Assembly: GCF_030028105.1 (NCBI RefSeq)
Contig: NC_092376.1
Coordinates: forward strand, 103,972,230-104,036,229
Origin: Mobula birostris
Lineage: Eukaryota
Direction: 5' to 3'
Length of the DNA stretch: 64,000 nt
In this document: in pieces, positions 3,068-63,029 of the stretch
Layout of the letters: every line of letters begins with the position of its first letter
Position numbering within the stretch: position 1 is the first letter of the stretch
Position numbers and translations under genes: made by a program
The notes under the pieces: generated by a model
Told to the model about the DNA's origin: nothing
Databases searched by the model: none
Seen by the model: only the letters and a program-made list of their open reading frames with translations

Positions 3068-3340
3068 ACAAGATGGTGGAGCAACTCGGCAGGTCAGGCA
3101 GTATCTATGGAGAGGAATAAACAGTCAAGATTTTGGGCCGAGACTCTTCATCAGGACTGGGAAGGAAGGGGGAAGAAGCCACTATTAAGAAGATGTGTGG
3201 AGGGGAAGGAGTACAAGGTGGAAGGAGATGGATGAAGCCAGGTCAGTGGAAAAGTGGTGGATGAAGTGAAAAATTGGTATGTGATAGAGGGAAAAAGTAG
3301 AGGACTGAAGACGGAACTGATGGGTGAGGAGAGTGGACAC
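3068..3340 (-). mobile_element. Penelope-like element 3' end with degenerate hammerhead
   Basis: Minus strand reads AGTCCTGATGAAGAGTCTCGGCCCAAAATCTTGACT, with GAAACGUC decayed, next to a purine-rich UTR like 60710-61000. Confidence 0.7.
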
Positions 3341-5822: not shown

Positions 5823-6790
5823 CAGAATCAGAATCAGATTTATTATCACAGGCATGTGATGTGAAATTTGTTAACTGAGCAACAGCAGTTCAATGTAATA
5901 CCTAATCTAGCAGAGAATAAAAAATAATAAACCAAAAAGGTAAATCAATTACGTATATTGAACAGATTTTTAAAAGTGCAAAACCAGAAATATTGTATAT
6001 TTAAAAAAAGTGAAGTAGTGTCCAAAGATTCAATGTCCATTTAGGAATCGGATGGCAGAGGGGAAGAAGCTGTTCCTGAATCACTGAGTCTATGCCTTTG
6101 GGCTTCTGTACCTCCTGCCTGATGGTAACAGTGAGAAAAGGGCATACCCTGGGTGCTGGAGGTCCTTAATAATGGACGCTGCCTTTCTGAGATACTGCTT
6201 CCTAAAGATGACCTGGGTACTTTGTAGGCTAGTACCCAAGATGGAGCTAACTAAGTTTACAACATCCTTCAGCTTCTTTCGGTCCTGTTCTTTAGCCCCT
6301 CCATGCCACACAGTGATGCAGCTTGTCAGAATGCTCTCCATGGTACAACTATAGAAGTTTGAGTGTATTTGTTGACATGCCAAATCTCTCCAAACTCCTA
6401 ATGAAGTATAGCCATTGTCTTGCCATCAATATATTGGGACCAGGTTAGATCCTCAGCGATCGTGACACCCTTGAAGCTGCTCACTCTCTCCACTTCTGAT
6501 CCCTCTGAGGATTGGTATGTGTTCCTTTGTCTTACTCTTCCTGAAGACCACAATCAGCTCTTCTGTCTTACTAACGTTGAGTGCCAGGTTGTTGCTGTGG
6601 CACCCACTCCACTAGTTGGCATATCTGACTCCTGTACGCCCTGTCGTCATCACCTGAGATTCTACCAACAATGGTTGTATCGTCAGCAAATTTATAGATA
6701 GTATTTGAGCTATGCCTAGCCACACGGTCACGGGTATATTAGAGAGTAGAGCGGTGGGCTAAGCACACACCCCTGAGGTGCAGCAGTGTT
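5823..6790 (-). mobile_element. Rex1/Babar LINE, 5'-truncated (RT C-terminal part, 3'UTR, GAATCA tail)
   Basis: ORFs give APQGCVLSPPLYSL and FYSCTMESILTSCITVWHG..LFSLLPSGRRYRS; KFADD lies at about 6680. Tail CAGAATCAGAATCAG. Confidence 0.9.
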
Positions 6791-6826
6791 AGTCCTGACG
6801 AAGGGTCTCGGCCTGAAACGTCGACT
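6791..6826 (+). ncRNA. Minimal type I hammerhead ribozyme (PLE-associated), intact core
   Basis: Stem I AGTC/GACT, CUGACGA at 6795-6801, stem II GGGU-CUCG-GCCU, GAAA at 6815-6818, palindromic ACGU stem III, predicted cleavage after C6822. Confidence 0.8.
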
Positions 6827-6925
6827 GCACCTCTTCCTACAGGTGCTGCTCGGCCTGCTGCGTTCACCAGCAACTTTGATGTGTGTTGCTTGAATTTCCA
6901 GCATCTGCAGAATTCCTGTTGTCTT
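6791..6925 (+). mobile_element. PLE pseudo-LTR fragment (hammerhead plus 3' tail) abutting the 5' end of the Rex1 copy
   Basis: Near-identical to 18181-18279 and to the reverse complement of 60604-60708. Ends with the tail TGAATTTCCAGCATCTGCAGAATTCCTGTTG. Confidence 0.85.
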
Positions 6926-9539: not shown

Positions 9540-9855
9540 AGAAGGCGCTTAGCTGCTTGTTGAAGTGGTCTCCCAATCTATGTCGGGTCTCACAGGAGGT
9601 GTAGTGGCAGGTGTGGTACTGATGTAGGTGAGCACAAGAAGAATCCTATCACTGGTGTGGGGGCAGGAGGATGGGGAGAGGGCAGGCAGACCTGCGCGAA
9701 GTAAAAGAGATGTAGGTGAGGGCAGCGTTGATGGTGGAGGAAGGGACGCTCCTTTATTTGAAGGAGGACGTCATTTCCTTAGTTAATGTGGTTTCTCTTT
9801 TCATAGATGCTGTCTGATATGAGTATTTCAAGCATTTTGGTTTTGAATTCCAGCA
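9540..9855 (-). mobile_element. Old PLE fragment with inverted tail
   Basis: Resembles the PLE at 50401-51435 and is followed by CATAGATGCTGTCTG..AGCATTTTG..TTCCAGCA in the opposite orientation. Confidence 0.5.
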
Positions 9856-13507: not shown

Positions 13508-14316
13508 TTGACCCTGGATTTGTATCCTTTGGACTCTTGAGTGGATTTGAAATCGGAATCTATTAACCTCATGAGAGCAGAGCCATTTGAAAGAAAACTG
13601 AAACATTAAAAAAAAACACTTGAATTTTCTAGCGATGCCATTGAGAAAAATGTATAATTGTTCAGGGTTTGTATTGGAAGCCTGAATTTGAACTTGGAGA
13701 GTGATTTATCATCTTCACCTTGTTTTCATGTGGACGAATGATTAGCATGGGTATATGAATGAATTAGGGTTAAAATTAATTTGATTAGATTGCATTTCAT
13801 ACTAATGCTTTTGTAAATTAAAACAATACCATAACAGGATATAATTTAAATTTTTAATTTCTGTGTTTTATTCCAATACAGTTAGTTGGGTTAGTTTGCC
13901 AAGGATGAGATGGCACATCAAAGACTTAAAGCATTAAAGTGTAGCTTCAATTTAAAGTAATGATTTGGAAGCTATATAAGCTATATTTCTTTTCTGACAA
14001 AGGGTGGATCATTGTGTAAGTTGCAACTTTTGATCTGTATTGGAAGGTATTACAAACATTCCAGCAGTAAGTGATGTTATTTCTGAATAACTGGTTTGGA
14101 TTCATCTTGCACTTCATTACTGAATTGGGTTTTTTGCATGCTGTTAACTGACTAATTTTAGAATATTGATTAGTCTTGCATATTCTGTAATTTGAGACAA
14201 ATATCTATGGAGTTCCTACACTCTGGTTTAAGTAGGTGAAAGTTATGCTGCTTTACAAAGCAGTACTGGTAATTGGATAACTTTCAAACAGAGCAAACCA
14301 AGTAATAAAACCTATT

Positions 14317-14497
14317 CAACAACACACAAAATGTTGGAGGAACTCAGCAGGCCAGGCAGCATCTATGGGGGGAGGGCTGGGAGGAGAAGAAAAAAAGTAC
14401 TTTTCTTCCATAGGTGCTGCCTGGCCTGCTAGGTTCCCCCAGCATTTTGTTTGTGTGTGTGTTGCTCAGATTTTCAGCATCTGCAGATTTTCTCTTT
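14317..14497. mobile_element. Inverted-repeat PLE mini-element (hammerhead deleted) with 15-bp TSD
   Basis: Arms GCAGGCCAGGCAGCATCTATGG and CCATAGGTGCTGCCTGGCCTGC. TSD GTAATAAAACCTATT (14302-14316) and GTAATTAAACCTATT (14498-14512). Confidence 0.75.
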
Positions 14498-14513: not shown

Positions 14514-16812
14514 TCATCTACCACTACAGGTCACAGTGGGTGAACATCTGGGGGACAGTGACCACCGCTCCCTGGCCCTTAACATTATCATGGAAGAGGA
14601 TAGAATCAGAGGGGACAGGAAAATTTTTAATTGGGGAGGGGCAAACAATGAGGCTATAAGGCTAGAACTTGCGGCTGTGAATTGGGATGATATTTTTGCA
14701 GGGAAGTGTTCTATGGACATGTGGTCGATGTTTAGGGATCTCTTGCAGGATGTTAGGGATAAATTTGTCCCAGTGAGGAAGATAAAGAATGGTAAGGTGA
14801 AGGAACCATGGGTGACAAGTGAGGTGGAGAATCTAGTCAGGTGGAAGAAGACAGCATACATGAGGTTTAGGAAGCAAGGATCAGATGGGTCTATTGAGGA
14901 ATATAGGGTAGCAAGAAAGGAGCTTAAGAAGGGGCTGAGGAGCAAGAAGGGGGTATGAGAAGGCCTTGGCAAGTAGGGTAAAGGAAAACCCCAAGGCATT
15001 CATTTATGTGAAGAACAAAAGGATGACAGGAGTGAAGATAGGACGGATTAGAGATAAAGATGGGAAAGTGTGCCTGGAGGCTGTGGAAGTGAGCGAGGTC
15101 CTCAATGAATACTTCTTCGGTATTCACCGATGAGAGGGAACTTGATGGTGGTGAGGACAATTCTTCGGTATTCACCGATGAGAGGGAACTTGATGATGAG
15201 TGAGGTTGATGTTCTGGAGCATGTTGATATTAAGGGAGGGGAGGTGTTGGGGTTGTTAAAATATATTCGGACGGATAAGTCCCCGGGGCCTGACGGAATA
15301 TTCCCTAGGCTGCTCCATGAGGCAAGGGAAGAGATTGCTGAGCCTCTGGTTAGGATCTTTATGTCCTCGTTGTCCACGGGAATGGTACCGGAAGATTGGA
15401 GGGAGGTGAATGTTATCCCCTTGTTCAAAAAAGGTGGTAGGGATAGTCCGGGTAATTATAGACCAGTGAGCCTCACGTTTGTGGTGGGAAAGCTGTTGGA
15501 AAAGATTCTTAGAGATAGGATCTATGGGCATTTAGAGAATCGTGGTCTGATCAGGGACAGTCAGCATGGCTTTGTGAAGGGCAGATCATGTCTAGCAAGC
15601 CTCATAGAGTTCTTTGAGGAGGTGACCAGGCATATAGATGAGGGTAGTGCAGTGGATGTGATCTACATGGATTTTAGTAAGGCATTTGACAAAGTTCCAC
15701 ACGGTAGGCTTATTCAGAAAGTCAGAAGGCATGGGATCCAGAGAAGTTTGGCCAGGTGGATTCAGAATTGGCTTGCCTGCAGAAAGCAGAGGGTCGTGGT
15801 GGAGGGAGTACATTCGGACTGGAGGGTTGTGACTAGTGGTGTCCCACAAGGGTTGGTTCTGGAACCTCTACTTTTCGTGATTTGTATTAACGACCTGGAT
15901 GTCGGGGTAGAAGGGTGGGTTGGCAAGTTTGCAGACGATACAAAGGTTGGTGGTGTTGTGGATAGTGTAGAGGATTGTCGAAGATTGCAGAGAGACATTG
16001 ATAGGATGCAGAAGTGGGCTGAGAAGTGGCAGATGGAGTTCAACCCGGAGAAGTGTGAGGTGGTACACCTTGGAAGGACAAACTCCAAGGCAGAGTACAA
16101 AGTAAATGGCAGGATACTTGGTAGTATGGAGGAGCAGAGGGATCTGGGGGTACATGTCCACAGATCCCTGAAAATTGCCTCACAGGTAGATAGGGTAGTT
16201 AAGAAAGCTTGTGGAGTGTTAGCTTTCATAAATCGAGGGATAGAGTTTGAGTCATAGGGTAATGATACAGCTCTGTAAAACTCTGGTGAGGCCACGCTAG
16301 GAGTACTGTGTCCATTTCTGGTCGCCTCATTATAGGAAGGATGTGGAAGCATTGGAAAAGGTACAGAGGAGATTTACCAGGATGCTGCTTGGATTAGAGA
16401 GTATGCATTATGATCAGAGATTAAGGGAACTAGGACTTTACTCTTTGGAGAGGAGGAGGATGAGAGGAGACATGATAGAGGTATACAAGGTATTAAGAGG
16501 AATAGATAGAGTGGACAGCCAGCGCCTCTTCCCCAGGGCACCACTGCTCAGTACAAGAGGACATGGCTTTAAGGTAAGGGGTGGGAAGTTCAAGGGGGAT
16601 ATTAGAGGAAGGTTTTTTACTCAAGAGAGTGGTTGGTGTGTGGAATGCACTGCCTGAGTCAGTGGTGGAGGCAGATACACTAGTGAAATTTAAGAGTCTA
16701 CTGGACAGGTATATGGAGGAATTTAAGGTGGGGGGGTTATACGGGAGGCAGGGTTTAAGGGTTGGCGCAACATTGTGGGCTGAAGGGCCTGTACTGTGCT
16801 GTACTGTTCTAT
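14514..16812 (+). mobile_element. CR1-clade LINE, 5'-truncated, 2.3 kb (end of APE endonuclease, RT, 3'UTR)
   Basis: HLGDSDH (endonuclease C-terminus), full RT, C-terminal RRMRGDMIEVYK..TRGH, tail GGGCCTGTACTGTGCTGTACTGTTCTAT. Several frameshifts. Confidence 0.95.
15130..16257 (+). pseudogene. CR1 ORF2 reverse transcriptase domain (frameshift-bounded fragment)
   Basis: KSPGPDGI, NYRPVSLT, QHGF, DFSKAFDKVPH, SGVPQG, KFADD, WQMEFNPEKC. Confidence 0.92.
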
Positions 16813-18041
16813 AATGTCTGAAAATATATGGAACAATAATGCCATTTTTATGCTTCTGTAATAGTTGCAGTGTCTTTTCAGTACTAGCTTAAAAACTAAA
16901 GGAATCAAAGGTAAAAGGGAGAATGGATTGAAGCAGTAGGTCTTGCGCCATGTATCTATTGGACTAATTTAAGAATGCAACTCATAGAGCAACATGGATA
17001 ATCTATTTCATGCAATGTACTTTAAGTCTTTGTAAGTGTGGTTTATATGGGGAAAAACAAGGGTCAAAGAAGAAATTAAATAATTGTGTTGAAAAGAGTC
17101 AGTAATTGGAAGTGGGCAGTAATACTATGACTTGTGGATTTCTGTGGGGTTTCAGCCTATGCTCTTTGTTTTCATAAGTGAACTGGACCAAAATTGTGCT
17201 TGGTATTCTCAGAAAATTATTAAATGAACATCTATGTTATGTAATAGGAATTGGACCCAGTTAAATTGATAATCTAAGGGTCAATTGATGAAATGGAGGA
17301 TTGTTTTCAGCAGGAAAAGAACATGATGAATATAATGTTGTGGTGGTTGGAAACTTACTTGGTGATCACTCTTTTAATCACTTCCTCCAGTTAAAGTAGA
17401 AAATACATTAATTACACCCCATGAAATATCTATCTGTGACATTGTGGGTTATGAGATGTATTATAAAGTCATTTTGCTGTTCGATTGTTATGAAGTATTC
17501 AAGCTTTAATGTCATTAAGAACATTTGAAATAAGTTTAATCAACACCTCTAGTTTGCATTATGCTTTTGTTTTACTTTGATGCTTGAGATACAAGAGTAG
17601 TCTATTTGAAATTATTGTGTATATCCCATTAACTGCATAATAAATGGATCTATTAATCAGGATAGCATGTTAAGCTAATTACGTTAAAATGGGATGCAAA
17701 GCAAGTTAGAAAATAGAATTCATCAAATTAGTTAAAGGCAAAGTTCTTTGAATATTCCACTAAATATGTTAATATATTAGCAGCAACTAATGAGCCTTGA
17801 TTTGTATTTGTGAATTTATAACAGGAATGTGCATTTTATAATATACTTTTTTATATTGATTAAGACACAAGCTGCAAAAACTATTGGCAGTGGGTATGCT
17901 GAGTTTATTTTTAAGTTAAATAGATTCAATGAAAGAACGTAATTGGCCTTAATTTAAGTAAATAGGTTTGAAAAATGTGTCAATTGCTCAGTCTTTACTG
18001 TGTCTCATTTGCAGTTAAGCAGTCAACAGGAGGAAGAGTGC

Positions 18042-18279
18042 AAACAACAAGAATTCTGCAGATGCTGGAAATTCAAGCAACACACATCAAAGTTGCTGGT
18101 GAACGCAGCAGGCCAGGCAGCATCTCTAGGAAGAGGTACAGTTGAAGTTTCAGGCCGAGACCCTTCGTCAGGACTAACGAAGTCCTGACGAAGGGTCTCG
18201 GCCTGAAACGTCGACTGTACCTCTTCCTAGAGATGCTGCCTGGCCTGCTGCGTTCACCAGCAACTTTGATGTGTGTTGC
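18042..18279. mobile_element. Inverted-repeat PLE mini-element with hammerheads on both arms and 15-bp TSD
   Basis: 99-bp arms 18077-18175 and 18181-18279 (2 mismatches), 5-nt spacer, 35-bp unpaired tail at 18042-18076. TSD CAGGAGGAAGAGTGC (18027-18041) and CAGGAAGAAGAGTGC (18279-18293). Confidence 0.9.
18181..18216 (+). ncRNA. Minimal type I hammerhead ribozyme, intact core
   Basis: AGTC-CTGACGA-AGGGTCTCGGCCT-GAAACGTC-GACT, predicted cleavage after 18212. Confidence 0.8.
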
Positions 18280-19299
18280 AGGAAGAAGAGTGCGATAGCT
18301 GAGCCCAACGTGGTGCTTAGGAATAGGCTGAACGATTCTCAGCCATTTTCAGCCTGATATACCAACCCCAACTGGTGATTGGCACTGACTAATTCCTGAG
18401 ATCCACACCACCATAGATTAATTTAAGCAATAGAACTCTGAATAGAACAGGCATGGGCCTGGTATTCTACCTGTGATTTTTATTTTAAAAAGCTGTTTCT
18501 TTATCAAACTGTTTGATAATGGTTACAACATGGAACTTTGCTTGTAAACTGCAAAATTTTCCAGGCCTGCCTAAACGTACAAATCATAAATCATGTTAAC
18601 CTGTTCACAGCCAAAAACTTGCTCTTGATCATTTGCAGTGTAGTGAAAGCTATCCAAGTGTCACATTGTGCTTAGCAGTAACTTCCTAATGTTCAGTTTG
18701 AGGTCAGTCTGAATCTCTCTGCTTCATATGTCATTACTTGTGGGGGAAAAACACTGACATCCGGAGAAGTAGAAAGGGTAGTTGTTGCTTTGACTAAGAT
18801 TAACTTCAAGGAACTGTAGTACAATTGAAAGTAATTGTGAGTTTGTACAAGTTTTATATTAACTGATGTTCAAAGGCTTACTGTTGTAATCCTGATAAAC
18901 AGAAAAAGTATGGGATGTGATATCAAAGAAATCTCAGCAGAATTGCAATGAATTACGTAACTTGCATGCATTATCCACTACTGACAATGGAGAAAGTGAA
19001 TGAGGCTGATGAAAAGTATTCAAAAGCCTTTGTGACAATGCCTCAAATGCTCCATTATAGTTCCTGTTTAATTCTCATCCAGTCAGCAAATCAGTTCTAT
19101 TAGAGGTGGCACCACAGTGTTTATAGATACCTACTTTCTTGATTTGAAAATAAATCATGATTTGTTAATGCTGGATCAAAATCTTAGACGAATTTTTTTT
19201 GGAGTATTTTACCATTCAGTCTAGTGTCTCATAACATGCATTTATGACAAATTGCAACAAGGTTTGAGTATTCAACATTGATCTTGACAAAGATATTAG

Positions 19300-23488: not shown

Positions 23489-26136
23489 TATTCCTTCTCA
23501 ATACTTTTTGTTCCTTCTATGACTTGGCTTTGCATTGTTTGTTGGAAAATGAAAGAATTAGTACCTTCAACTAAGTCACCATGTAGATTGTAAATATGAG
23601 ATCATAACACTGATTCCTGCAGCAGTATGTTGGTTGCAGCTTATCAACTCATCATTTAAATTTGTTTTCTGCCCTTTATCAAGTCTGTATCCATGTTAAT
23701 ATTACTCCAAGCTTACAGGATCTTATGTAATGCCTTTCATGTGGCACCTTATCAAATGCCTCATTTAAATGTATGTCCTTGCTGTCATTATTTGCATCCT
23801 TTATGCAGGCTCTTAAGTTTGCCATAACATGATTTGGTTTTCACAAGATCATGTTGACTTTGCCTAATCGTATCCTTTAAGTGCCTGTTACCATTTTCTT
23901 AATAATATACTCCAGCATTTTCTGACAACCATTGACAGGCTATAACTAGCCAGTAGTTTCATTACATTCTGCTTTTTCCTGAATAATATTGTTGTATTTG
24001 CTGTTTAAAATTTGCTGAAACTATTTTAGAATCCCAAAGAATTTTGGTTGATCACAACTATTGCATTTGTTGCAAACATTTTTTTTAGGACTCCAGGATT
24101 TGAGTTCTAAATGTCAGGGGATTTGTTGGCTTTTCAATAGCTTTTCCTTGTCCTTTACTTTGTTTCTCATTTTTAATTGCTTGACGGTTCCTATTGCATT
24201 TGGAATCCCCTGCTGTGAAAACAGATACCTGCTAATCTACTAACTGACTATTCAAATCCCAATGGTTCAGCATCTGGCTCATGAGTGATAGTTACCACTC
24301 TGTCCTGATGCTGTGTAGGATTCCCAGTTTGGAGAAATGTTGTTTAACGGTATACATGTATGTAGTTAGTTGACAATAAACTTGACTTGATTTAACTTGA
24401 CAGTGATACCCATTAAAAGAAAGTAATTAGAAGGCAACTTAACATGTAGGTTTAAAAGCAGAAATCAGCAATCCTTTGGCCAAATTATTCTGCAAATATC
24501 CACTAAATCCACCCGTTCTGGTGTGTATACTATGAATACTTAAATGCCTCTTTCCAGTGGCGAAAAAGCTTCTGAAAAAATGATAATCCATTCAGAAGCA
24601 CAGATATGATTTTCAGTCTGTGAGAAATGCAAAAAAAAATTGGAGCAGAGTACCAATACTGTTTGGACTTTTTTCCCCACTGTCAGTAAAGGCTTTAACT
24701 CTAAGGCATGTAAATTCATCTCTAATTTGCATTTGTTTCTTGTGTGCAAACCATGATCTGAAAGTATAAAAGCAGACTGGATGCAAGTCGTTTTTAATCC
24801 CAAGGAACTGCCTCAGAAATATGTATACAATGATTTTGGGAGCCAACTGAATTTAAGGATAAACCTAACTTTCTATAATTGTTGAGTCTCATTCTTTAAT
24901 ATTTCAGTTTTCTAAATTTGAGTTCCTGACTTGGAACAATAAATCTCTCTGCATTTTTCCCTTTATTTTGCTTTGTGTGATTTCAATTAAGAAAGCTAAA
25001 TTGCTTAGAGTAAATGCCATGAGTCCTTGTCAGTTTTATGTATTGGTCTGGCCTGTGTTGGAAATGATACTAACACAAGTAAGAATGACAAGTTTTCATT
25101 GCTGAAGTATTGATGTGACAACTGACTTTTATTCTCATGTTTTGCTGAATTTGACTTGAATTCTGCTTGGTACATTCCATGTACAGGAATATTTAGTATA
25201 GTATTGGTTATACTTCATGTTGATTAGGAAATGGGGTTTGAACTTTGTGATCCTAGTTGGAATGTTTGGAATTGCCTGAAAACCAGGATTATTGAAGCAT
25301 TGGATTAAGGTACAAAAATGACATCCTCAAGTGTTGTTTATGAAACAAAGCTATGTAACTTACAAGATTCTTTGCTTTTATGATTAATGAAGTGAACTAG
25401 AGCCTGGTTACCTAACGAGACCTGATCATATTAAGGTGTTTTCTCTGATTAACTATTTAGACTTCTGTCTATTTGGATAGTATCACACTGGGAAGCTGCA
25501 GCACATAGTTTATGTTAGGATGCTTGGTTCGTTGTCACTGCCCGTGTCCTGTCCTTGGATCAATGCCTGTGTCCTCTGTCTTAGATCAGTATTTGGTGTT
25601 TCATCATCAAACATATCAATAATATGTTTGGTATTGTTATATTTAGGATGATGGTTGGGTTAGGTATGGAGAGGTTTATACATAATCTGACTTGGATCTG
25701 GTTTGGATTGTTATTGAATTCTTTACCTAAGCAATTCTATAAACTAAACCACAGTTAGTTTTAAAAGCTGTTCAATTCATAACATTGTTAATGGACAGCA
25801 CCTGGAAGCCAAAATGTACATTATATAATATTTCTACATTTCAAATTTTGTCAACATGGAAAATAAATAATAATTGTCCTATTTTCCCTTGTATCTATAT
25901 TATCAGTCTAAAATGCAGTTAAGGTACAAAGATCCAAAGTTACAAATTAAAATTAGCATATTAACTAACATAATCATTAAAAGTGGTTACTGGACTTTGG
26001 TTAGAAAAGAATGGAATTCAAAAGTAGCAAGTTTGTCCAGCTACTTGGAAAATATGCCTGTTTTTAAAGGGGAAAAACCCCACATAGTAGAGTTTCACTA
26101 ATGTGATACTAGAAATAAAAAGTTTTATCTCTCTTA

Positions 26137-27370
26137 AGAATCAGAATCAGGTTTAATATCACCAGCATATGTCATGAAATTTGTTAACTTAATGGCAGCA
26201 GTACAATGCAATACATGATAAATGTAGAAAAAAATTACACTAAGTATGTATGTTAAATGTTTAAATTTAAGAATAGTAGTGCATAGACTGAAATAGTAAA
26301 AAAAAAGTGAGGTAGTGTTCATGGGTTGAATGTACATTTAGGAATTGGATGTCAGAAGAATTTGCTGATGATACAACTGTTGTTGGTAGAATCTCAGCTG
26401 GTGACAAGAGCGCGTACAGGAGTGAGATATGCTAATTAGTGGAATGGTGCCGCAGCAACAACCTGGCACTCACCGTCAGTAAGACGAAAGAGCTGATTGT
26501 GGAATTCAGGAAGTGTAAGGCAAAGGAGCACATACCAATCGTCATAGAGGGATCAGAAGTGGAGAGAGTGAATGGCTTCAAGTTCCTGGGTGTCAAGATC
26601 TTTGAGGATCTAATCTGGTCCCAACATATCGATATAGTTCTAAAGAAAGCAAGACAGCGGCTATACTTTGTTAGGAATTTGAAGAGATTTGGCATGTCAA
26701 CAAATACACTCAAACTTCTATAGTTGTACCATGGAGAGCATTCTGACAGGCTGCATCACTGTCTGGTATGGAGGGGCTACTGCACAGGACTGAAAGAAGC
26801 TGCAGAAGATTGTAAATCTAGTTGTCTCAATCTTGGGCACTAGCCTACAAAGTACCCAGCACATCTTTAGGGTCTCAGAAAGGCAACGTCTATTATAAAG
26901 GACCTCCAGCACCCAGGGCATGCCCTTTTCTCACTGTTACCATCAGGTAGGAGGTACAGTAGCCTGAAGGCACACACTCAGTGATTCAGGAACAGCTTCT
27001 TCCCCTCTGCCATCAGATTCCTGAATGGACATTGAAGCTTTGAACACTACCTCTTTTTTTAATATACAGTATTTCTGTTTTTGCATTTTTTTAAATCTAT
27101 TCAATATATGTAATTGATTTACTTATTATTTTATTTATTATTATATTTTATCTCTGCTAGATTATGTATTGTATTGAACTGCTACTGCTAAGTTAACAAA
27201 TTTCACGTCACATGCCGATGATCGATGATAATAAACCTGATTCTGATTCTGAAGAAGCTGTCCCTGAATCGCTGAATGTGTGCCTTCAAACTTCTGTAGC
27301 TCCTTACCAACAGTAACAATGAGAAGAGGGCATACCCTGGGTGACAGGGGTCCTTAATAATGGACACCCC
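26137..27370 (-). mobile_element. Rex1 3' fragment split by a younger Rex1
   Basis: AGAATCAGAATCAGG tail at 26137. The sequence breaks at about 26358 and resumes at 27251 (GAAGAAGCTGTCCCTGAATCGCTG). Confidence 0.8.
26359..27250 (+). mobile_element. Rex1 LINE, 5'-truncated at FADD
   Basis: FADDTTVVGRIS..WCRSNNLALTVSKTKELIVEFRK..FKFLGVKI..KKARQRLYF, tail AAACCTGATTCTGATTCT. Confidence 0.9.
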
Positions 27371-29650: not shown

Positions 29651-30404
29651 ATTTATCTTTAATTATTCTGGGTTACTAAATGACAATTTTAGGTGAATAA
29701 TTTCCAGCTAAATATGAAACCAGGATTTGGGGGATATATTTTATTGTGTTTAATAAATTCTGGCATATTTGATTTTGGAATGCAGTTATATTACACAGGT
29801 CTTTTACCATGCCAAGACATTGCTGAGTTGTCTGTTTTACAAGTCTGAGTAAATTCTTTTTAGTCATTTCAATCTACCCACAGTGATCCTCTATTAACAA
29901 TATAACATTTTTCAATAAATTTTTAATTCAAGTTTTTGGCAAAGTTATTTTCAGCTCCACTTGAAAGGAACATGAAGTTGAAATCTTAGTGATCTTTTTG
30001 TTGCTTCTACTGCATTATCAAGATCCTTTGAGCAGAATGCAGATAGGCTGAATTATGTTTAAGGAAAGTAGTTTTATGGATTGTGCAAGATTTGAGAATT
30101 GGAAGTTAGTTCAAGGTTTTGTTAAATATGTTCTTGTTATAGTGAGCTAAAACAACCAATGCCTATTGCAGGCAGCCCATTCCAGGCTGACTTTCACTGA
30201 TTGGTCATTGCTCTGATCATTGTCTTGAATGTTCTTGAGTAAACCATTTAAACAATCGTGCTTTAGGATGTATAGTTCAGGTTTGAGATTTTGTAGTTGT
30301 GTGATTTTACTAAGTAAAAGAGTATTTCAAGTTCTGACACATAGCCTTTGTGATGATTTTCAATCAGAACACTTGTATTGAAATATTTCAAGTGTCATTT
30401 CAGC

Positions 30405-30560
30405 AGGAAATGGAAATATTCACCATGTCAGGCAACATCTGTGGAACCGAAACAGTTAATATTTTGGCTATAATACCCTTCATCAGAATGTGAAGTTAAA
30501 TGTTTCTTCTTCCATAGTTAAGGCATGACCTGCTGAATGTTTCCAAAATTTGTTTTGCTA
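30405..30560. mobile_element. Old inverted-repeat PLE remnant
   Basis: GTCAGGCAACATCTGTGG..CCCTTCATCAGAA, followed by the inverted TTCTCTTCCATAG..GACCTGCTGAATGTTTCCA. Confidence 0.55.
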
Positions 30561-38762: not shown

Positions 38763-38967
38763 CATGTACCTAGTAAGACTCATGTCCCCATGTACCTGGT
38801 ATATGGCAATAAGCTCAACTTTGGTTTTGCCTTTAAGAGAAATGCTGTTGCTTCAGCCATGTGATTTGATGCTTTGATATCGCACATGCCCCGTTATTTT
38901 TATAAAACCTTTTTTTAAAAAAAAAGGCTCAACAGTAATTAGTACTGTGCAGTCTGGCAGTCAGGAA

Positions 38968-40820
38968 AATCAGAATCAGGTTTATTATCACTGGCATGTG
39001 TTGTGAAATTTGTTAACTTAGCAGCAGCAGTTCAATGCAATTCAATACAATTAAAAATTGTGCAAAAACAGAAATAATACATATTGAAAAAGTGAGGTAG
39101 TGTTCATGCATTCAAAGTCCATTTGGGAATTGGATGGTAGAGGGGAAGAAGCTGTTCCTGCATTGCTGAGTGTGTGCCTTCAGGCTTCTGTACCTCCTAC
39201 TTGATGGTAACAATGAGAAAAAGGCATGCCCTGGGTGCTGGGGTTCCTTAATAATGGATGCTGCTTTTCTGTGACACTGCTCCTTGAAGATGTCCTGGGT
39301 ACTTTGTAGCTTAGTGCCCAAGATGAAGCCAACTAAATTTATGACCCTCTGCAGCTTCTTTTGGTTCCGTGCAGTAGCTGTCTTTCCCATCATTCCCCCC
39401 CCCCCCGCCCCAATACCAGACCGTGATGCAGCCTGTCAGATGCTCTCCGTGGTACACCAATAGAAGTTTTTGAGTGTTTTTGTTGACACACCAAATCATT
39501 TCAAACTCCTAATGAAGTGCAGTTGCTATCTTGCCTTCTTTATTGCTGCATTGATATGTTGGGACCAGGTTAGATCCTCAGAGATCTTGACACCCAGGAA
39601 CTTGAAACTGCTCACTCTCTCTACTTCTGATCTCTGAGGATTGGTATGTGTTCCTTCGTCTTACTCTTCCTGAAGTCCACAATCAGCTCTTTCGTCTTAA
39701 TGACGAGCACAAGGTTGTTGCTGCAGCAGCACTGCACTAGTCGGCATCTCTCACTCCTGTGCGCCCCCTCATCTCCATCTGAGATTTTACCAACAATGGT
39801 TGTATCATCAGCAAATTTATAGATGGTATTTGAGCTATGCCTAGCCACACAGTCATGGGTATAGAGAGAGTAGAACGGTGGGCTAAGCACACACCCCTGA
39901 GGTGCACCAGTCTTGATCGTCAGCGAGGAGGAGATATTATCACCAATCTCACAGATTGTAGTCTTCTGGTTAGGAAGTTGAAGATCCAATTGCAGAAGGA
40001 AGTACAGAGGCCCAGGTTCTGTAACTTTGCAGTCAGGATTGTGGGAATGATGGCATTAAATGCTGAGTTATAGTCGATGAACAGCATCCTGACATAGGTG
40101 CTTGTATTGTCCAGGTGGTCTAAGGCCATATGACGAGCCATTGAGATTGTGTCGGTTGTTGTGGTGATAGGCAAATTGCAGTAGGTCCAGGTCCTTGCTG
40201 AGGCAGAAGTTCAGACTTGTCATGACCAACCTCTCAAAGCATTTCATCACTGTAGATGTTAGTGCTGTTGGGCGATGGTCATTAAGGCAGCTCACATTAT
40301 TCTTCTTAGGCACTGGTATAATTGTTGCTTTTCTGAAGCAAGTGAGAACTTTCACCCATAGCAGTGGGAGGTTGAAAATGTCCTTGGGTACTCAAGGCAG
40401 TTGGTTGGCATAAGTTTTTAGGGCCTTACTAAGTACTCTGTCGGGTCCTTCTGCCTAACGAGGGTTCACCCTCTTTAAAGACAGTCTGACGTCAGACAGA
40501 GATCACAGGGTCACTGGGTGCAGCAGGGACTTCACAGCTGTTGTTATATTCTCCTTTTCAAAGTGGGCATAGAAGGTGTTGAGTTCATCTGGTACTGAAG
40601 CGCCACTGCTTTTCATGTTAACAACAGGAATTCTGCAGATGCTGGAAATTCAAGCAATACACATCAAAGTTGCTGGTGAACGCAGCTCCGTCCTGACGAA
40701 GGGTCTCGGCCTGAAATGTCGACTGCACCTCTTCCTACAGATGCTGCCTGGCCTGCTGCGTTCACCAGCAACTTTGATGTGTGTTGCTGCCTTTCATGTT
40801 GTTGGGTTTTGCTTTGTAGG
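38968..40820 (-). mobile_element. Rex1 LINE (RT domain to tail), frameshifted
   Basis: [60 protein letters not shown], tail AATCAGAATCAGG. Confidence 0.92.
40620..40787. mobile_element. Inverted-repeat PLE mini-element with hammerhead variant and 14-bp TSD
   Basis: Same termini as 18042-18279, with the left arm shortened. GTCCTGACGAAGGGTCTCGGCCTGAAATGTCGAC starts at 40690. TSD CTGCTTTTCATGTT (40606-40619) and CTGCCTTTCATGTT (40787-40800). Confidence 0.85.
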
Positions 40821-45225: not shown

Positions 45226-45969
45226 CAGTAGATTCCAGATAATTAGGGCAGTTTATTTCAGAACACTTAAAGAACAAAAACAATGAGAAAATAGCCGGCT
45301 CACAACACGCTGGAGGAACTCAGCAAGTCAGGCAGCATCCGTGGAAAAGATCGGTCAACGTTTCGGGCCGGAACCCTTCGTCAGGACTGGTGAAGGATTC
45401 CGGCCCGAAACGTCGACTGATCTTTTCCACGGATGCTGCCCGACCTGCTGAGTTCCTCCAGCGTGTTGTGAGTATTGCTTTGACCCCAGCATCTGCAGAT
45501 TATTTTGTATTTGAGAAAATAGCTGGGATTTCCTTTGTTTATTTGAGACACTTTGCATCTTAATTGGGATGGGGGACTGTTGTCAAACAGTTTCTAGTGG
45601 TCACGTGCACAGAGTGAACTGTTTTTAAACAGTTATGTGTGTTTGTGTTCTAAAAGCACTAATTTTTGTCACTGATGGTTGATGAGAAATAAGAAGTAAG
45701 ACATTTCAAAATTGTTTTGCTCAACCCAGTTTCAAGCATTGAGGCTTGGAGATGCCAGCAATGGCTAGGAGAAAAATTTCACCACTTCAAGTTAGGAAAT
45801 ATGGAGAAGTTGAAGGTATCAAAACTCATCTTGAATGTTACAATAAATTCAACATTGGATGATTTGGAGAATGCAATCATTTAATGCATTGTATGAAGGC
45901 AGTCTATTTCTCTGCGCTAGGTGCGCTGATTTTATTCGTTTACAGTCAATGGATGATAGAAATCCACTG
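45226..45969. mobile_element. Tigger-like MITE, copy 2 (contains a PLE mini-element)
   Basis: Ends CAGTAGATTCC and AATCCACTG. Shares GAGAAAATAGCTGGGATT, TTTTTGTCACTGAT and TTTCAAGCATT.AGGCTTGGAGATG with copy 1. Confidence 0.75.
45299..45511. mobile_element. Inverted-repeat PLE mini-element (different subfamily) with 15-bp TSD
   Basis: Arms about 45299-45379 and 45392-45472, tail on the right. Minus-strand hammerhead GTC-CTGACGA-AGGGTTCCGGCCC-GAAACGTT-GAC. TSD TGAGAAAATAGCCGG (45284-45298) and TGAGAAAATAGCTGG (45512-45526). Confidence 0.88.
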
Positions 45970-49212: not shown

Positions 49213-50400
49213 TAGAAACATGGAAAACCTACAGCACAATACAGGTCCTTTGGCTCACAAAGCTGTGTCAAACAGGTCCTTACTTTAGAAATTACCTAGG
49301 GTTACCCATAGTCCTCTATTTTTCTGAGCTCCATGTACCTGTCCAGGAGTCTCTTAAAAGACCCAATTGTATCCACCTCCACCACCGTCACCGGCAGCCC
49401 ATTCCACGCACTCGCTTCTCTTTGCGTTTTTAAAAAAAAACAGCAACTTACCCCAACATCATCTCTGTACCTACTTCCAAGCACCTGAAAACTGTGCCCT
49501 CTCGTGCTAGCCATTCCAGCCCTGGGAAGAAGCCTCTGGCTATCCACATGATCAATGCCTCTCATCATCTTATACACCTCTATCAGGTCACCACTCATCC
49601 TCCGTTGCTCCAAGGAAAAAAGAGTGAGTTCACTCAAGCTATTCTCATAAGGCATGCTCCCCAATCGAAGCAACATCCTTGTAAATCTCCTCTGCACCCT
49701 TTCTATGGTTTCCTTTCATCCTTCGTATAGTGAGGCGACCAAATCTGAGCATAGTACTCCAAATGAGGTCTGACCAGGATCCTATATAGCTACAATATTA
49801 CCTCTTGGCTCCTAAACTCAATCCCACGATTGATGAAGGCTAATGCACCGTATGGTTTCTTAACCACTGCGCAACAACTTTGAGTGTCCTATGGACTCGG
49901 ATCCTAAGATCCCTCTGATCCTCCAGACTGCCAAGAGTCTTACCATTAATACTATATTCTGCCATCATATTTGACCTACCAAAATGAGCCCCCTCACACT
50001 TACCTGGGTTGAACTCCATTTGCCACTTCTCAGCCCAGTTTTGCATCCTATCAATGTCCCGCTGTAACCTCTGACAGCCCTTCACACTATCCACAACACC
50101 CTCAACCTTTGTGTCATCAGCAAACTTACCAGCCCATCCCCCCACTAATGAAGTGCAACCCAGATAAGTGTGAGGTGGTTCATTCAGGTCATTTATAAAA
50201 ATCACACAGTGTAGGGGTCCCAGATCAGATTCTTGAGGCACACCACTGGTGCATGACCTCCATGCAGAATATGACCCGTCTACAACCACTCTTTGTCTTC
50301 TGTGGGGAAGCCAGTTCTTGATCCACAAAACAATGTCCCCTTGGATCCCATGCCTCCTTACTTTCTTGCATGGGGTATCTTGTCAAATGCCTTGCTGAAA
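49213..50400 (-). mobile_element. CR1 LINE 3' half
   Basis: WIKNWL..SGVPQ..KFADD..WQMEFNPGKC and QRRFTRML..GDLIEVYK..TRGH. Tail TAGAAACATGGAAAAC. Confidence 0.9.
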
Positions 50401-51435
50401 TAGCAGGTCGGGCAGCATAATTGGAAATGAATGATCAATCAATGTGTTGGGCCAAAACCTTCCTTTCAGACTGGCAAAGAAGGGGAAGATGCCAGATGAA
50501 ATAGGTGGTGTGAGAGGAAGAAGGATAGCTCGAAGGTGGCAGGTTGAAGCCAGTTGGGTCTGAAAGGTAAAGAGCTGGAGAAGAGGGAATCTGATGGGAG
50601 AAGAGAGTGGACCATAGGAGAAAGGGAAGGAGGCACCATGGGGAGGTGAATGGCAGGTAAGAAGAGTGGGAAATTGAAGAAGGAGGGATGGGGAGGGAAT
50701 TTTTCTTTACCAGAAGGAGAAATCGATATTCATGCCATCAAGTTGGAGGCTACCGAGATGGAATATATGGTGTTGCTCTTCTGTCCTGAGGATCGTCTTA
50801 TCGTCACTCAAGAGGAGGCCACAACAGACGTGTCGGAACAGTAATGGGAATCAGAATTAAAATCTTCAGCCATCGGAATGTACCAGTTTTGGTGGATGGA
50901 GCAGAGGCGCTTGATGAAGTGGTCTGCCACAGGTCTCACCAATGTTGAAGAGGCTGCATCAGGAGCACCAATACAATAGATGGTAAGGGAGCAGGTGAAT
51001 AGCACTTTGGCTCTTTGCAAGGATAAGTGCCAGAAGGGAGATTAGTGGGGAGAGAGAGAAATGGACCAGAGAATCATGGAGAGAGCGATCCCTGTGGAAA
51101 GTTGGGGGTGGGGATGTTGGGGGAAGGTGTTGCCTTGGAAAGGAAATCCTCAACCTGGGAACAGATGTGGCGGAGGTGAAAGAATTGAGAAAAGAAAATA
51201 GCATATTTATAGGTGACGGTGGGAAGAGGTATTGTCAAAGATAGCTGTGGGAATTGGTAGGTTTAGAAAAGTTGTCTGTTAACAGTTTGCCTCCAGAAAT
51301 GCAGGCAGAAAGATGGGGGGAAAAAGAAGGGAGGTGTCAGAAATGGACCAAATGAATTTAAGTTTAGGGTGTAAGTTGGAGGCAAAGTTGAGGCAAGTTC
51401 AGCATGGGTGGAGGAAACTGCACCAATGCAGTCAT
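50401..51435 (-). mobile_element. Degenerate PLE (RT C-terminus, GIY-YIG, 3'UTR, decayed hammerhead)
   Basis: FHRDRSLHDSLVH, HFIKRLCSI..DFNSDSH, and GAAATCGATATTCATGCCATC as at 61018-61040. Confidence 0.75.
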
Positions 51436-53185
51436 CAACACAGGCTGCGGCAGAAATTGAACCCCAGTCGGTTAAAGATGGCTCTGTAAAGCAATGTTCT
51501 AACTGATAAACTACATTACTCCGCTTATGAAACACATCTGTATTGAATTGATGTGATTGAAGTGAATTTCAAAAGTGAAGTAGATATGAAATGCAACTTT
51601 TTTGCAGTTTTATCCTCTATGGATATTGATTTGTTGAATTTCTATTTCTTCTTTCTCCCCTGCCCCAAGTCAAGGTATCAAATTAGACAGCAAAGTAAAA
51701 GCTCCTGGTTGATGATCTCTGCTGATTTAAATTTGCCCAAGTACCACTGGCCTCTGGTGTTTTATTTTAAAGTAGTAGTAACATCAGGAAACTGGAGCAA
51801 GCATTATGCAAACCGATTGCTGTATGTCACATACCTTGCGTAATTTCCTTTACTGGTGAAGTAAATAATTGAATAACTTCCTCTGCAGTTAAATCGATCA
51901 CACTAGCATGTAATAAATTTTTTATAATTACACTTTTGTTCCAAGTTTTCATTTTGGCCATGGCTGAAGCTGCATTAGAAATTAGTGCTCCAGCTCAACT
52001 GTAGTCAACTACAACAAGGATTTAAAAAAAAAATTCACCTGCCAGTCCCTCTCAAATTTCAACTAATGAGGATTGACTGTACAGGAGGCAGCACTCAGTT
52101 CTATGCCTGAGAGATTGTTTCATTTCCCACCCCACCATGACTCTTTTTGTTGTATGTACACCAATTATTCTTCCCAGTTCCAGTGCTGCAGAATGGTGGA
52201 CTAACTATTAAAATTTCATTCTAGTGAATGTGCTTCCCCCTTATTCCTAATATTTAATGGCATAAGTAATTTACAGGTGTTTGATTTACTGTATTTTTTG
52301 TATATGAAAAAACTAGATTACCAGAATGGCCCCATGATGAGATAAAGTATTGGTAGCTGGCCTTGTACTACCCTGCAGCTTCACCTTATGATTCTTATTC
52401 CCCCCCTCCCACCCCCTGTGTTTTCTTCCACACATGCTTCCCTTCTCTTTCGCTGTCTGCTTTAAAAGTTAATGAACCTGGACAGTGTTGATGCTATTAA
52501 TAATTTAGTGGTGCACTGTTACTTTGCTTCTGTTTTGAAAAGAACTATCCACTTTAGGTGCTCTGTAAAACAAAAGGCTGAAGTATTAGACTTTGTCTTT
52601 TTAGAGCAGTTTGCTGCTCCTGAAAAATAATGTAGTTATTTAATGTATGGAAATAATAGGCCTAAATATTTTAACTTCCATATTTTGTTTAATATACTTC
52701 ATAAAGCCATTTCAGCACTTTAGTAATTTATCATGAACATTATAACTTCTGTCCTTCATGTTTGATGTTGACATTTGATAATTACCAGAGCAAGATCATA
52801 TTAGTGATGTCATCTACTGAGGGTATTTCTTTACTTTATACTTCATTGTCACCAAACAATTGATACTAGAACGTACAATCATCAAAGCGATGTTTGATTC
52901 TGTGCTTTCCACTCCCTGGATTCTTTAATAGCCTGATCAGTGGTTTCTTCAGAGAATCAAATATAGATTATGTGCACTGTACAGGGAAGAAGAAATGCAT
53001 GAATGCTAAAGGCCCAATGGTATATGTGTGTACTTAGGCAAAAGAGCCAGGGTCATTCTTTCATTTTGAGTTGCTGTTTAGGGGGTTTGGAGAAACTGAC
53101 TATCCTGAAGAGGAGGATGTGGGAATCTGCAAAATGTGATTGCTGGAGTTACTCAACTTTTTCATTTGAATTAAGAATACAATAA

Positions 53186-60324: not shown

Positions 60325-60603
60325 TCAAATGCTGGATTACAAAAACTTTGAGGATGCTTCGGATTTTTTAAAGAATAAATCTATAGTGTAAATGTTAATG
60401 TTTAAAAATAATTTGAGTTGTGCTTTTGACTCATTCTGTCTTATGTCTGTGATGTGTAATCCTGATCACTGTGCTCTACATTTAAGAAACTGATCCTTGC
60501 TATTGACGTCAAGAATTAAAAATGTTAAACGCAGTTGAGCTAGTATGAACTGATCATACTGGATCATATCTTTTGTTGGGTCCATATAATGGCAATAGTT
60601 GTT

Positions 60604-61216
60604 ATTCAAGCAACACACATCAAAGTTGCTGGTGAACGCAGCAGGCCAGGCAGCATCTGTAGGAAGAGGTGCAGTCGACGTTTCAGGCCGAGACCCTTCG
60701 TCAGGACTAACTGAAGGAAGAGTGAGTAAGGGATTTGAAAGTTGGAGGGGGAGGGGGAGATCCAAAATGATAGGAGGAGACAGGAGGGGGAGGGATGGAG
60801 CCAAGAGCTGGACAGGTGATTGGCAAAAGGGGATACGAGAGGATCATGGGACAGGAGGTCCGGGAAGAAAGACGGGGTGGGGGGGAACCCAAAGGATGGG
60901 CAAGAGGTATATTCAGAGGGACAGAGGGAGAAAAAGGAGAGTGAGAGAAAGAATGTGTGCATAAAAATAAGTAACAGATGGGGTACGAGGGGGAGGTGGG
61001 GCCTAGCGGAAGTTAGAGAAGTCGATGTTCATGCCATCAGGTTGGAGGCTACCCAGGTGGAATATAAGGTGTTGTTCCTCCAACCTGAGTGTGGCTTCAT
61101 CTTTACAGTAGAGGAGGCAGTGGATAGACATGTCAGAATGGGAATGGGATGTGGAATTAAAATGTGTGGCCACTGGGAGATCCTGCTTTCTCTGGCGGAC
61201 AGAGCGTAGATGTTCA
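60604..61216 (-). mobile_element. Young PLE 3' fragment: GIY-YIG C-terminus, 3'UTR and hammerhead
   Basis: EHLRSVRQRKQDLPVATHFNSTSHSHSDM..RLEEQHLIFHLGSLQPDGMNIDFSNFR-stop (61003), followed downstream by the hammerhead unit. Confidence 0.9.
60673..60708 (-). ncRNA. Minimal type I hammerhead ribozyme, intact, sense to the PLE ORF
   Basis: Reverse complement is AGTCCTGACGAAGGGTCTCGGCCTGAAACGTCGACT, identical to 6791-6826 and 18181-18216. Confidence 0.8.
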
Positions 61217-63029
61217 GATTGATTTGAACTAAAATCAGTCTCATATGTTTTCTGTGTACTTGCATGCATTTCTCAAGTTTTCTTGCTAATCGCAAAGGCA
61301 TGTTTTTTTAATTCACTTTTGGGATTAGGCATTACTGGCAAGGCGAGCACTTATTACCCATCCCCAATTACCTCTCTGCAGTTCCCTTTAGAAGGTGGTG
61401 ATGAGCTGCTGCCTTAAACAGCTGCTAACCATCTTGGGGGCTCTACATTACAACTATCTTATCAGTTATCGATTATTTTTGGTATTGGAAAGGAAATTCC
61501 AGAATTTGGCTCCAGCAGCTACAAGCGATGGAAACTTGCAGCTGGTGATGCTATCTTGCTCTTGCTGACCTTGTCCTTGATGGTATATGTCATGGCTGTA
61601 GGAGTGTGCTGTCAGAGTAGTCTGGATGAGTACTTTGTAGGATTTAAAGAATTTAAAATGCTAAACACAGTTGAGGCAGCATACACTGATCATACTGGAT
61701 CATCTCTTTTGTTGGGACTATATAATGGCAACAGTTATTGGTCGGATTGATTTGAACTAAAATCAGTCTCGTGCTTGCTTGCATTTCTGAGTTTTCATGC
61801 TAATAATCATGGATGATTTTTTAAATTCGCTTTTGGGATTGGGCATAATCCCAATTAACAAAAGCACAGTGATATATTTCTGAGGCAGAATGGTATGTGG
61901 CCTGGAGCATTGTGTGCTAGTAATGGAGGCAAGGAATATTTTGGTTTATTGATAAGGTGCCAATTAAACAATCAATGCTTCAATGATCCAACAGGAATTT
62001 TGAAATGCAAACTCAAAGTTAAGTACTAATATTTCAAATATATCCTAACTAAAGAACATGTAACTCCAAAATGGACGATTCCATAGTTTTGCTGCTATTG
62101 AGACTCCTCCCTTCTTTCCTCCTCTAAGTGTCTCATCGTAATCTTCTATTTATTTTGTCAATGCATGTCCAAGCTCCCCTAATTGTTTCTATGTGTTAAG
62201 CCTTCCTCATGTTAATGAGTTCCATATTTTCACCGTGAATGTAGAATACAGAATGACTCCAGCTCGAAGCAACCAAATCAATTTTTCTAAAATCACGTGG
62301 CAGTAGCATGGCTTCAAACCAATAGCAGTATACCCCAACTATCGAGAATAGTAGTTTGTAAACTTTAACTTCAGTACGATTCAAATCTTTGAAGTTTTTA
62401 ATTATTGGAAAAAGCACATTGTCACGTCAAGTTTCTGGTTCTTTTAATTAGAACCAGAATTCTCTCAACAGAGAACAGAAAACTGTATATGCTTTACTTC
62501 TAATTTTACATCGTGCTGTGTATTGCCTTTAGGGTCTATTTATTACAATTATCCATTAGTTACCTTTTTTTGTTGTTAGGCATATGACACGTGGAAATCC
62601 ATCATTATCATGCTTTGCTGTTTTGGATTACCTGTGATAAGATATTGAGAATTTAATACAAAAAAATCCATCTGCTAGATTTGGACTGCATGCTTGGTTT
62701 CTATAGCAACTACCATCAATTTAGTTTGGTGAAAGGAAAGTTTTAAGTATGGTCAGGTGTAAGTGGGGGCACTGTGTAGTTTGCTATCAGTGTTTGCTGC
62801 TTTCACAGTACAGGCATTTTCTTATGTATTTCCTGAAACCAAGGACAGAATACCAGTGTGAAATGTTTTCTAACATCAGGTGGGTTGCTAAGTTATTAAT
62901 CATACTATGTCACTAGCCCATTTTTATTGTATTTAAGTTTATCAGTGTCATGACTCATGTTAATTTCTTGGTTATTACCACTTGGACTTTCCCCATGCTC
63001 TTCAATGCCCCCCTATTTAACTTTATTGT

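What the first reader, a model, noticed from the sequence alone, without database searches (positions are those of the whole stretch)
60673..61216. Hammerhead sits about 300 nt downstream of a GIY-YIG stop codon, linking all ribozyme copies to an autonomous PLE
Seen: the same 36-nt hammerhead occurs at 6791(+), 18181(+) and 60673(-). Here it is in the sense 3'UTR of a PLE GIY-YIG C-terminus. Stem III is reduced to GAA-ACGU-C, too short to fold as a monomer, but ACGU is self-complementary. There also appears to be an extra A after CUGACGA. Known: minimal PLE hammerheads are thought to cleave as dimers. Inference: this family was recently active and processes its RNA by dimeric self-cleavage.
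Basis: partly seen in the sequence, partly recalled or inferred. Interest (0 to 1): 0.7.

Follow-up and report, generated by a model that had tools for sequence, protein, structure and literature searches.

The report
Penelope hammerhead: start and cut fossils
This is a cut-short copy of a very abundant Penelope-type jumping gene carrying a known kind of tiny self-cutting RNA motif; the ends of its sister copies suggest that the element's RNA likely starts at the motif's front edge and is probably cut there only rarely, while the proposed pairwise (dimer) cutting remains untested.

Summary
Observation confirmed. The 36-mer is exact at 6791(+), 18181(+) and 60673(-), about 295 nt after the stop of an endonuclease tail. 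The window copy (about 61213-60604, minus) is a 5'-truncated fragment with neither RT nor the GIY-YIG motif. It is 96.9% identical to an intact copy elsewhere (pLTR, 1089-aa RT+GIY-YIG ORF, pLTR; hammerhead in both). The genome holds 34,387 exact core matches. Minimal type I hammerheads with an extra base and palindromic loop 3 in Penelope pLTRs are published (PMC4209133).

Corrections: in the tandem layout the motif lies 138 nt upstream of the ATG, so it acts as a leader. Copies are 96-98% alike, so not brand new.

Extra evidence: 20 of 100 copies start at helix I (-34..-30) and 1 of 100 at the cut. Of 99 head-to-tail stutters, 32 join exactly at the scissile bond and 27 at +5..+7. None of 52 examined upstream pieces passes -36, against 57 of 93 ordinary copies passing -37. 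This suggests an RNA starting at -32/-36, mostly copied uncut and occasionally cleaved. Dimer cleavage was not testable. This scan noted the same family and both signals before in other windows.

The parts
60604..61213 (-). 5'-truncated copy of a young Neptune/Nematis-type Penelope-like element (ends uncertain by about 4 nt)
   Evidence: 96.9% to intact copy L229 over 606 nt; flanks rejoin against a local empty paralogue at 61647-61882
61003..61218 (-). last ~70 codons and stop of the ORF: C-terminal half of the GIY-YIG endonuclease, without the GIY/YIG motifs
   Evidence: tblastn 97% to residues 1019-1088; no Pfam hit on the fragment itself
60709..61002 (-). pyrimidine-rich spacer of the pLTR, between stop codon and ribozyme
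60705..60714 (-). two overlapping initiator-like hexamers (label recalled) whose A residues are at -36 (60712) and -32 (60708); inferred RNA start sites
   Evidence: 5' ends of copies pile at -34..-30; stutter units start at -32 and -36
60673..60708 (-). minimal type I hammerhead: helix I 60708-60705 with 60676-60673; core CUGACGA 60704-60698; extra A 60697; helix II 60696-60693 with 60688-60685; GAAA 60684-60681; palindromic ACGU 60681-60678; predicted cut between 60677 and 60676
60604..60672 (-). leader downstream of the cut, ending at the first of two 3'-end clusters (the PLE 'tail')
   Evidence: 3' ends: 48 of 100 at +58..+75 and 49 of 100 at +92..+112
6788..6922 (+). short sister copy starting at about -35
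18040..18284 (.). head-to-head inverted pair of short sister copies; the plus arm starts at -32
40620..40788 (.). inverted pair of short sister copies; the plus arm starts at -31
45299..45472 (.). inverted pair from an older subfamily (loop II UUCCGG, C11.1)

Best explanation
The locus is a 5'-truncated copy of a high-copy endonuclease-bearing Penelope-like retrotransposon whose pseudo-LTR carries a minimal type I hammerhead motif; the element's RNA likely starts at the motif's 5' edge, is likely reverse-transcribed mostly uncut, and is probably cleaved after GUC only occasionally, which is predicted to need a partner copy or protein help. Shown by sequence: family, intact copy, motif anatomy, positions of copy ends. 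Inferred steps: (1) transcription from the upstream pLTR starts at -32 (minor -36) and runs through the ORF (ATG at +138) to the second hammerhead 3.7 kb on; (2) RT starts internally at about +66 or +102; from the downstream unit this gives 5'-truncated copies like this one, and from the first unit it gives ~100-135-nt run-off copies ending at -32; (3) cleavage releases a 32-nt leader whose free 3' end is now and then used in a template jump, leaving GUC|AGUC stutters; (4) helix III would form between two copies through ACGU, probably protein-assisted.
For: Intact element with both hammerheads. 5' ends of copies chosen only by a downstream motif: 20 of 100 at -34..-30, 1 of 100 at 0..+4; 12 of 80 further copies also at -34..-30. 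8 of 13 non-inverted peak copies have a TSD-like repeat of 8 nt or more. Two 3'-end clusters about 35 nt apart (97 of 100) match the two internal RT starts and the 'tail' of PAc (PMC11167929). Stutters (hand count of the 99 rows): 32 rows (30 loci) end exactly at the cut, the largest single position; in 21 of these rows the joint is GUC|AGUC with no microhomology. Upstream pieces never pass -36 (0 of 30; 0 of 22), against 57 of 93 ordinary copies passing -37. G precedes the -32 A in 59 of 100 listed purine cases, against about 44% expected from base composition, a hint of cap reading. PAc uses uncut RNA and its hammerhead cleaves only with protein (PMC11167929).
Against: A second joint cluster at +5..+7 (27 of 99 rows, 21 loci) has no ribozyme explanation, so the null is not uniform, and ends beyond +8 were not visible to the pattern. 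Copies starting at the cut are not enriched. Part of the G excess comes from microhomology with inverted arms, and 3 of 30 loci were long copies with a point change. Predicted competing folds are stronger: core-pairing hairpin -12.2 against -7.7 kcal/mol for helices I+II; GUCGAC self-duplex -7.5 against -1.7 for ACGU. The youngest subfamily has a G.U at 10.1-11.1. There is no compensatory change in helices I or II among subfamily majorities. The first-100 samples come from one end of one contig.
Confidence: 0.62

Rival explanations
1. One reading: the ribozyme efficiently processes the element's RNA by dimeric self-cleavage as a regular step, giving unit-length or circular templates.
For: Two identical cores 3.7 kb apart in intact copies. 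The palindromic ACGU is kept across subfamilies. 32 of 99 stutter joints fall at the cut. This model is proposed in PMC4209133.
Against: Copies starting at the cut are at background (1 of 100). Stutters are 99 rows against 34,387 cores. A circular template does not explain a hard 5' limit at -32/-36. Published minimal hammerheads cleave slowly even as dimers (PMC4209133), and PAc inserts from uncut RNA (PMC11167929).
Confidence: 0.15
2. The end clusters are structural or transcriptional artefacts, not cleavage: RT or nucleases stop at the base of the ~37-nt hairpin, or paused polymerase leaves short RNAs ending at -1 and +6; the motif is a near-inactive passenger.
For: The -32 peak coincides with the base of helix I. 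The +5/+6 joints lie just past its 3' strand. A misfolded hairpin is the predicted ground state. PMC8557442 raises the idea that hammerheads may simply parasitise PLEs.
Against: The cDNA hairpin is weak (-3.1 kcal/mol). The sharpest joint position is the bond predicted beforehand. Starts at -36 lie outside the hairpin. The core is retained across subfamilies while N7, 11.1, loop II and the flanks change.
Confidence: 0.2
3. The short copies are a separate non-autonomous SINE or retrozyme family, or come from an RNA spliced at the AG next to helix I.
For: Many 100-135-nt copies with a fixed start and TSDs. A pyrimidine tract plus AG precedes helix I, as the D. virilis intron end does (PMC4209133). 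Retrozymes derive from pLTRs (10.64898/2026.07.22.740005).
Against: Lengths are continuous up to full size. Short copies show the same downstream subfamily variants as long ones. Of 87 copies breaking off near helix I, none joined a donor-like upstream site by exact 13-mer match; the 2 matches were an internal deletion and a stutter.
Confidence: 0.05

Closest known systems
Minimal hammerheads (min-HHR) in pLTRs of metazoan PLEs (Cervera and De la Pena 2014, PMC4209133; read parts 1-2 of 4: abstract, results, discussion)
   Same: Type I motif, 4-5-bp helix I, unpaired base between 9 and 10.1, palindromic 15.2-16.2/loop 3, present in both pLTRs about 3-4 kb apart, thousands of dispersed single or inverted copies, dimer model.
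   Different: Helix II is short (3-4 bp plus loop, against 7-8 bp in Schistosoma). The youngest subfamily has G.U instead of the conserved G10.1-C11.1. 34,387 exact cores exceed the ~4,000 and ~9,000 motifs quoted there for coelacanth and Xenopus. The parts read do not mention cartilaginous fish.
Neptune/Nematis-type EN+ Penelope-like elements (Craig et al. 2021, PMC8557442; passages)
   Same: [quoted passage not shown]
   Different: Neptune against Nematis was not resolved (no labelled references on hand). The ORF has a long proline/serine-rich N-terminal part with a ~207-nt duplication in some copies.
PAc, Poseidon of Anolis carolinensis (Frangieh et al. 2024, PMC11167929; read parts 1-2 of 4: main text)
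   Same: Hammerhead at the pLTR-ORF junction; two internal RT start sites downstream of it that define the tail; uncut RNA as template.
   Different: In PAc the ORF starts inside the hammerhead (cut 26 nt after the start codon); here the ATG is 138 nt after the cut. PAc RNA-seq showed no ends at the cut, whereas genomic joints here favour it. Poseidon lacks the Zn linker.
Non-LTR retrozymes (bioRxiv 10.64898/2026.07.22.740005; read part 1 of 5 and passages)
   Same: Type I hammerhead, pLTR-derived, reported in one chondrichthyan.
   Different: Retrozymes are tandem arrays of non-coding units. Here the copies are truncations of a coding element; only rare 28-40-nt micro-tandems occur.

Membership tests
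EN+ Penelope-like element | single ORF with RT and C-terminal GIY-YIG endonuclease | tested here: met
   L229, 1089 aa: RVT_1 E=2.8e-5 and GIY-YIG E=0.0011, both below Pfam's cut-off; GIY-YIG reaches the cut-off in L031 and L032; all 11 motif checks met. The window copy itself lacks both domains' signatures.
EN+ Penelope-like element | pLTRs from partial tandems, inverted truncated partners, 30-40-bp tail | tested here: met
   tandems and inversions; two 3'-end clusters about 35 nt apart
Neptune/Nematis clade | CX2-5CxxC linker before the EN and two cysteines inside GIY-YIG | tested here: met
   L229 protein shows C-x4-C-x2-C and VIYC..C..C..LYIG; definition from PMC8557442
Neptune/Nematis clade | RT phylogeny places it in Neptune rather than Nematis | not tested
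   homologues carry no clade names; no tree was built
minimal type I hammerhead of PLEs | CUGANGA and GAAA cores, NUH cut triplet, helices I and II | tested here: met
minimal type I hammerhead of PLEs | unpaired base between 9 and 10.1; palindromic stem/loop III | tested here: met
   older majority A-GGG...CCC; ACGU self-duplex -1.7 kcal/mol
minimal type I hammerhead of PLEs | G10.1-C11.1 pair | tested here: not met
   Not met in this copy and in the youngest subfamily (G.U, or A-U in the other register); met in older subfamilies
minimal type I hammerhead of PLEs | compensatory changes in the helices | tested here: inconclusive
   Helices are invariant in subfamily majorities within this genome apart from 11.1; other species not compared
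minimal type I hammerhead of PLEs | self-cleavage, as a dimer | not testable with these tools
   only indirect genomic joints
Rfam hammerhead families | match to a curated model | tested here: not met
   no hammerhead family at E<=1 in the window
non-LTR retrozyme | tandem non-coding units each with a hammerhead | tested here: not met
   copies are truncations of the coding element

The most novel reading that the evidence does not exclude
The genome keeps a fossil record of the PLE RNA's life cycle. Transcription starts on the first bases of the hammerhead, the ribozyme clips off its own capped 32-nt leader in germ-line cells, and the telomerase-like RT captures and even reiterates that released leader. 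This would be in vivo evidence for cleavage by a minimal PLE hammerhead, acting as a self-decapping switch rather than a unit-length processor.
Probability: 0.4. Interest if true: 0.6.

Novelty: new member of a known kind. Interest (0 to 1): 0.35.

Why it matters
The finding as written is a known feature in a further host group. What could matter is the side result. Whether PLE hammerheads cut in cells, and what for, is described as open in PMC4209133, PMC8557442 and PMC11167929. With tens of thousands of copies, insertion ends give position-level predictions (RNA start at -32/-36, free 3' ends at -1 and +6, RT starts near +66 and +102) that CAGE, cyclic-phosphate sequencing or a PAc-style in vitro assay can test directly.

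Tried and rejected
Rfam scan: no hammerhead hit; the microRNA-like hits are mostly inverted PLE pairs.

Intact copies: the first candidates L069 and L070 have long open frames but carry out-of-frame stretches and changed catalytic residues. Of 20 further candidates only L229 passed all motif checks. Only 85 of 129,413 and 150 of 6,372 first-look candidates were scored, so the number of intact copies is unknown.

Expression: no RNA holder is on record and only assembled contigs were offered. Two layings gave no end clusters and no GT..AG joint among the rows shown; many rows were hidden. This is no evidence either way.

Splicing at the AG before helix I: no spliced genomic copy found.

A second 5'-end bump at -24..-20 (8 of 100) did not recur in 80 further copies (0 of 80); in the cases read it follows microhomology with the inverted arm.

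The 5'-end count was selected on the core and is biased; one search held duplicates; one search replaces both. The 3'-end column was faulty and was redone. Selection on the downstream motif forbids 3' ends before +49, so cannot show copies that end at the cut. The base counts include purine-selected loci and were not used.

Literature: Lunse et al. (dimer cleavage of PLE hammerheads) was not held and was seen only as cited in PMC6765202. Supplements of PMC4209133 and PMC11167929 were not opened and may list chondrichthyan motifs or 5'-end profiles. No covariance model and no tree were built.

Full report
Numbering: position 0 is the first base after the predicted cut (window 60676, minus strand); -1 is the C of GUC.

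1. Observation. The 36-mer is exact at 6791(+), 18181(+) and 60673(-), and five more diverged copies lie in the window. The reading frame upstream ends at 61003-61005, about 295 nt before the motif. A 31-nt core pattern has 34,387 exact matches in the 4.0-Gb genome, control 0; a downstream 30-mer has 83,165. Rfam gives no hammerhead hit. The closest named protein relatives are from rays and sharks (92% to a Mobula hypostoma record), so the host is likely a ray.

2. What the locus is. The copy runs from about 61213 to 60604 and interrupts one of two local paralogous repeats; the other, at 61647-61882, shows the empty site. It holds only the last ~70 codons of the endonuclease, past the YIG motif, and no RT. 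The 40 best-scored sisters (of 4,962 candidates) are 97-100% identical, the window copy itself included. Two protein searches of the genome led to 40 long copies. L069 and L070 are open but damaged. Of the 20 copies, one, L229 (G000:C16:43233000-43242900, minus), has a 525-nt upstream pLTR with the hammerhead, a 1089-aa ORF with all 11 motifs checked, and a second hammerhead about 300 nt after the stop. The window copy is 96.9% identical to it. The linker C-x4-C-x2-C and the cysteines inside GIY-YIG fit the Neptune/Nematis type as defined in PMC8557442 (passages). The ATG is at +138, so in the tandem layout the ribozyme heads the RNA. The two pLTRs of one element are 96.2-98.2% alike in 10 of 10 pairs: young, but with no sign of current activity in what I saw.

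3. The ribozyme. Helix I is (U)AGUC/GACU(G). Helices I+II score -7.7 kcal/mol with the extra-A register and -6.3 with the A-U register; the minimum-energy fold (-12.2) pairs the core with the cut triplet. ACGU self-pairs at -1.7, while the GUCGAC palindrome across the cut self-pairs at -7.5. Among 110 older copies (of 340 aligned) the majority keeps both cores and both helices. It differs from the young copy at N7, at 11.1 (C against U) and at 6 of 42 downstream positions. The contrast between core and flank is modest, and there are no compensatory changes. PMC4209133 (parts 1-2 of 4) already describes the extra base, the palindrome, the dimer idea and low activity. PMC6765202 (passages) reviews the same.

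4. Copy ends. I took the first 100 exact hits of the downstream motif, a selection that ignores the ribozyme. Twenty have 5' ends at -34..-30 (20 of 47 ends within -59..+19, p=2e-12 against uniform) and one at 0..+4; in 80 further copies 12 fall in the peak and 2 at 0..+4. Thirteen of the 20 are not in inverted pairs, and 8 of these show a TSD-like repeat of 8 nt or more. 3' ends form two clusters, 48 at +58..+75 and 49 at +92..+112, like the two RT start sites of PAc (PMC11167929, parts 1-2 of 4). G stands before the -32 A in 59 of the 100 listed purine cases (2,041 in all), against about 44% from composition. Inverted-arm microhomology explains part of this, so cap reading is only hinted.

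5. Stutter joints. Earlier notes of this scan pointed to rare joints at the cut, and I tested this. A gapped pattern found 99 places where a piece ending between -4 and +8 is followed by a unit starting at or before -31. My hand count of the 99 rows: 32 end exactly at -1 (30 loci; 21 rows are GUC|AGUC without microhomology); 5 at -1 or 0; 11 at -2 (8 followed by a G); 3 ambiguous through the repeated GUC; 13 at +2..+4; 27 at +5..+7 (21 loci); 8 other or ambiguous. In the 52 rows with flanks in hand, no upstream piece extends past -36, whereas 57 of 93 ordinary copies pass -37. The pieces therefore derive from an RNA whose 5' end is at -32 or -36, both the A of an initiator-like hexamer (label recalled). 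D. virilis Penelope also starts inside its pLTR from an internal promoter (PMC2377424, passages). The -1 peak is what cleavage predicts. The +5..+7 cluster shows that other free ends exist, so cleavage is suggested, not shown. Nothing here bears on monomer against dimer.

6. Mechanism. Most likely (0.62): RNA starts at the ribozyme's edge, is mostly copied uncut from internal RT starts, and is sometimes cut, probably with partner or protein help. Rivals: routine dimeric processing (0.15), structural or pausing artefact with an idle motif (0.2), separate short family or spliced template (0.05).

7. Novelty. The motif and its link to PLEs are known; this is a new member in a likely ray genome. 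Searches for Penelope+hammerhead+shark, for truncated copies with cleavage site and for template jump with transcription start listed no paper whose title, abstract start or read passages report such end clusters; subscription papers and supplements were not seen. PMC6155905 and PMC3846280 were seen as passages and add nothing on this point. This scan has 183 notes fitting these words in the same genome, and the eight shown already report the family, the front-edge starts or the joints at the cut. Those notes are not independent support.

Noticed in passing
window 50384-51439 (-): An older, decayed PLE fragment (71-76% DNA identity to L229) with thumb, linker and EN remnants followed by a degenerate hammerhead near 50438-50472: the same layout as the finding, from an older subfamily.
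   Followed up: partly
window 14313-14490, 3067-3168, 30401-30444, 9624-9783: Further old PLE pieces: an inverted pair lacking most of the ribozyme, two decayed hammerhead copies, and an RT-thumb remnant.
   Followed up: partly
window 15109-16257 (+) and 49840-50382 (-): RVT_1 reading frames (E=7e-34 and 3e-9) that do not match the PLE protein; probably LINE fragments, 77% alike in inverted orientation.
   Followed up: no
window 60511-60600 with 61214-61378, and 61647-61882: A local duplication of host sequence, about 86% alike; the PLE sits in one copy only, so the other shows the empty site.
   Followed up: yes
L269-L272 (G000:C4:178772333-178772486), L288, L294: Micro-tandems of the ribozyme leader with periods of 40, 32 and 36 nt, suggesting reiterated copying of a short RNA.
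   Followed up: partly
L229, L231, L237 and others against L031, L070: Two length variants of the ORF that differ by a ~207-nt tandem duplication in the proline/serine-rich N-terminal region.
   Followed up: no
window 60657-60610 (-): A short upstream ATG frame (about 16 codons) lies between the cut and the main ATG, in another frame.
   Followed up: no
window 5818-6738, 26131-27365, 38960-39863: Another dispersed repeat family in several copies, 80-90% alike, not identified.
   Followed up: no
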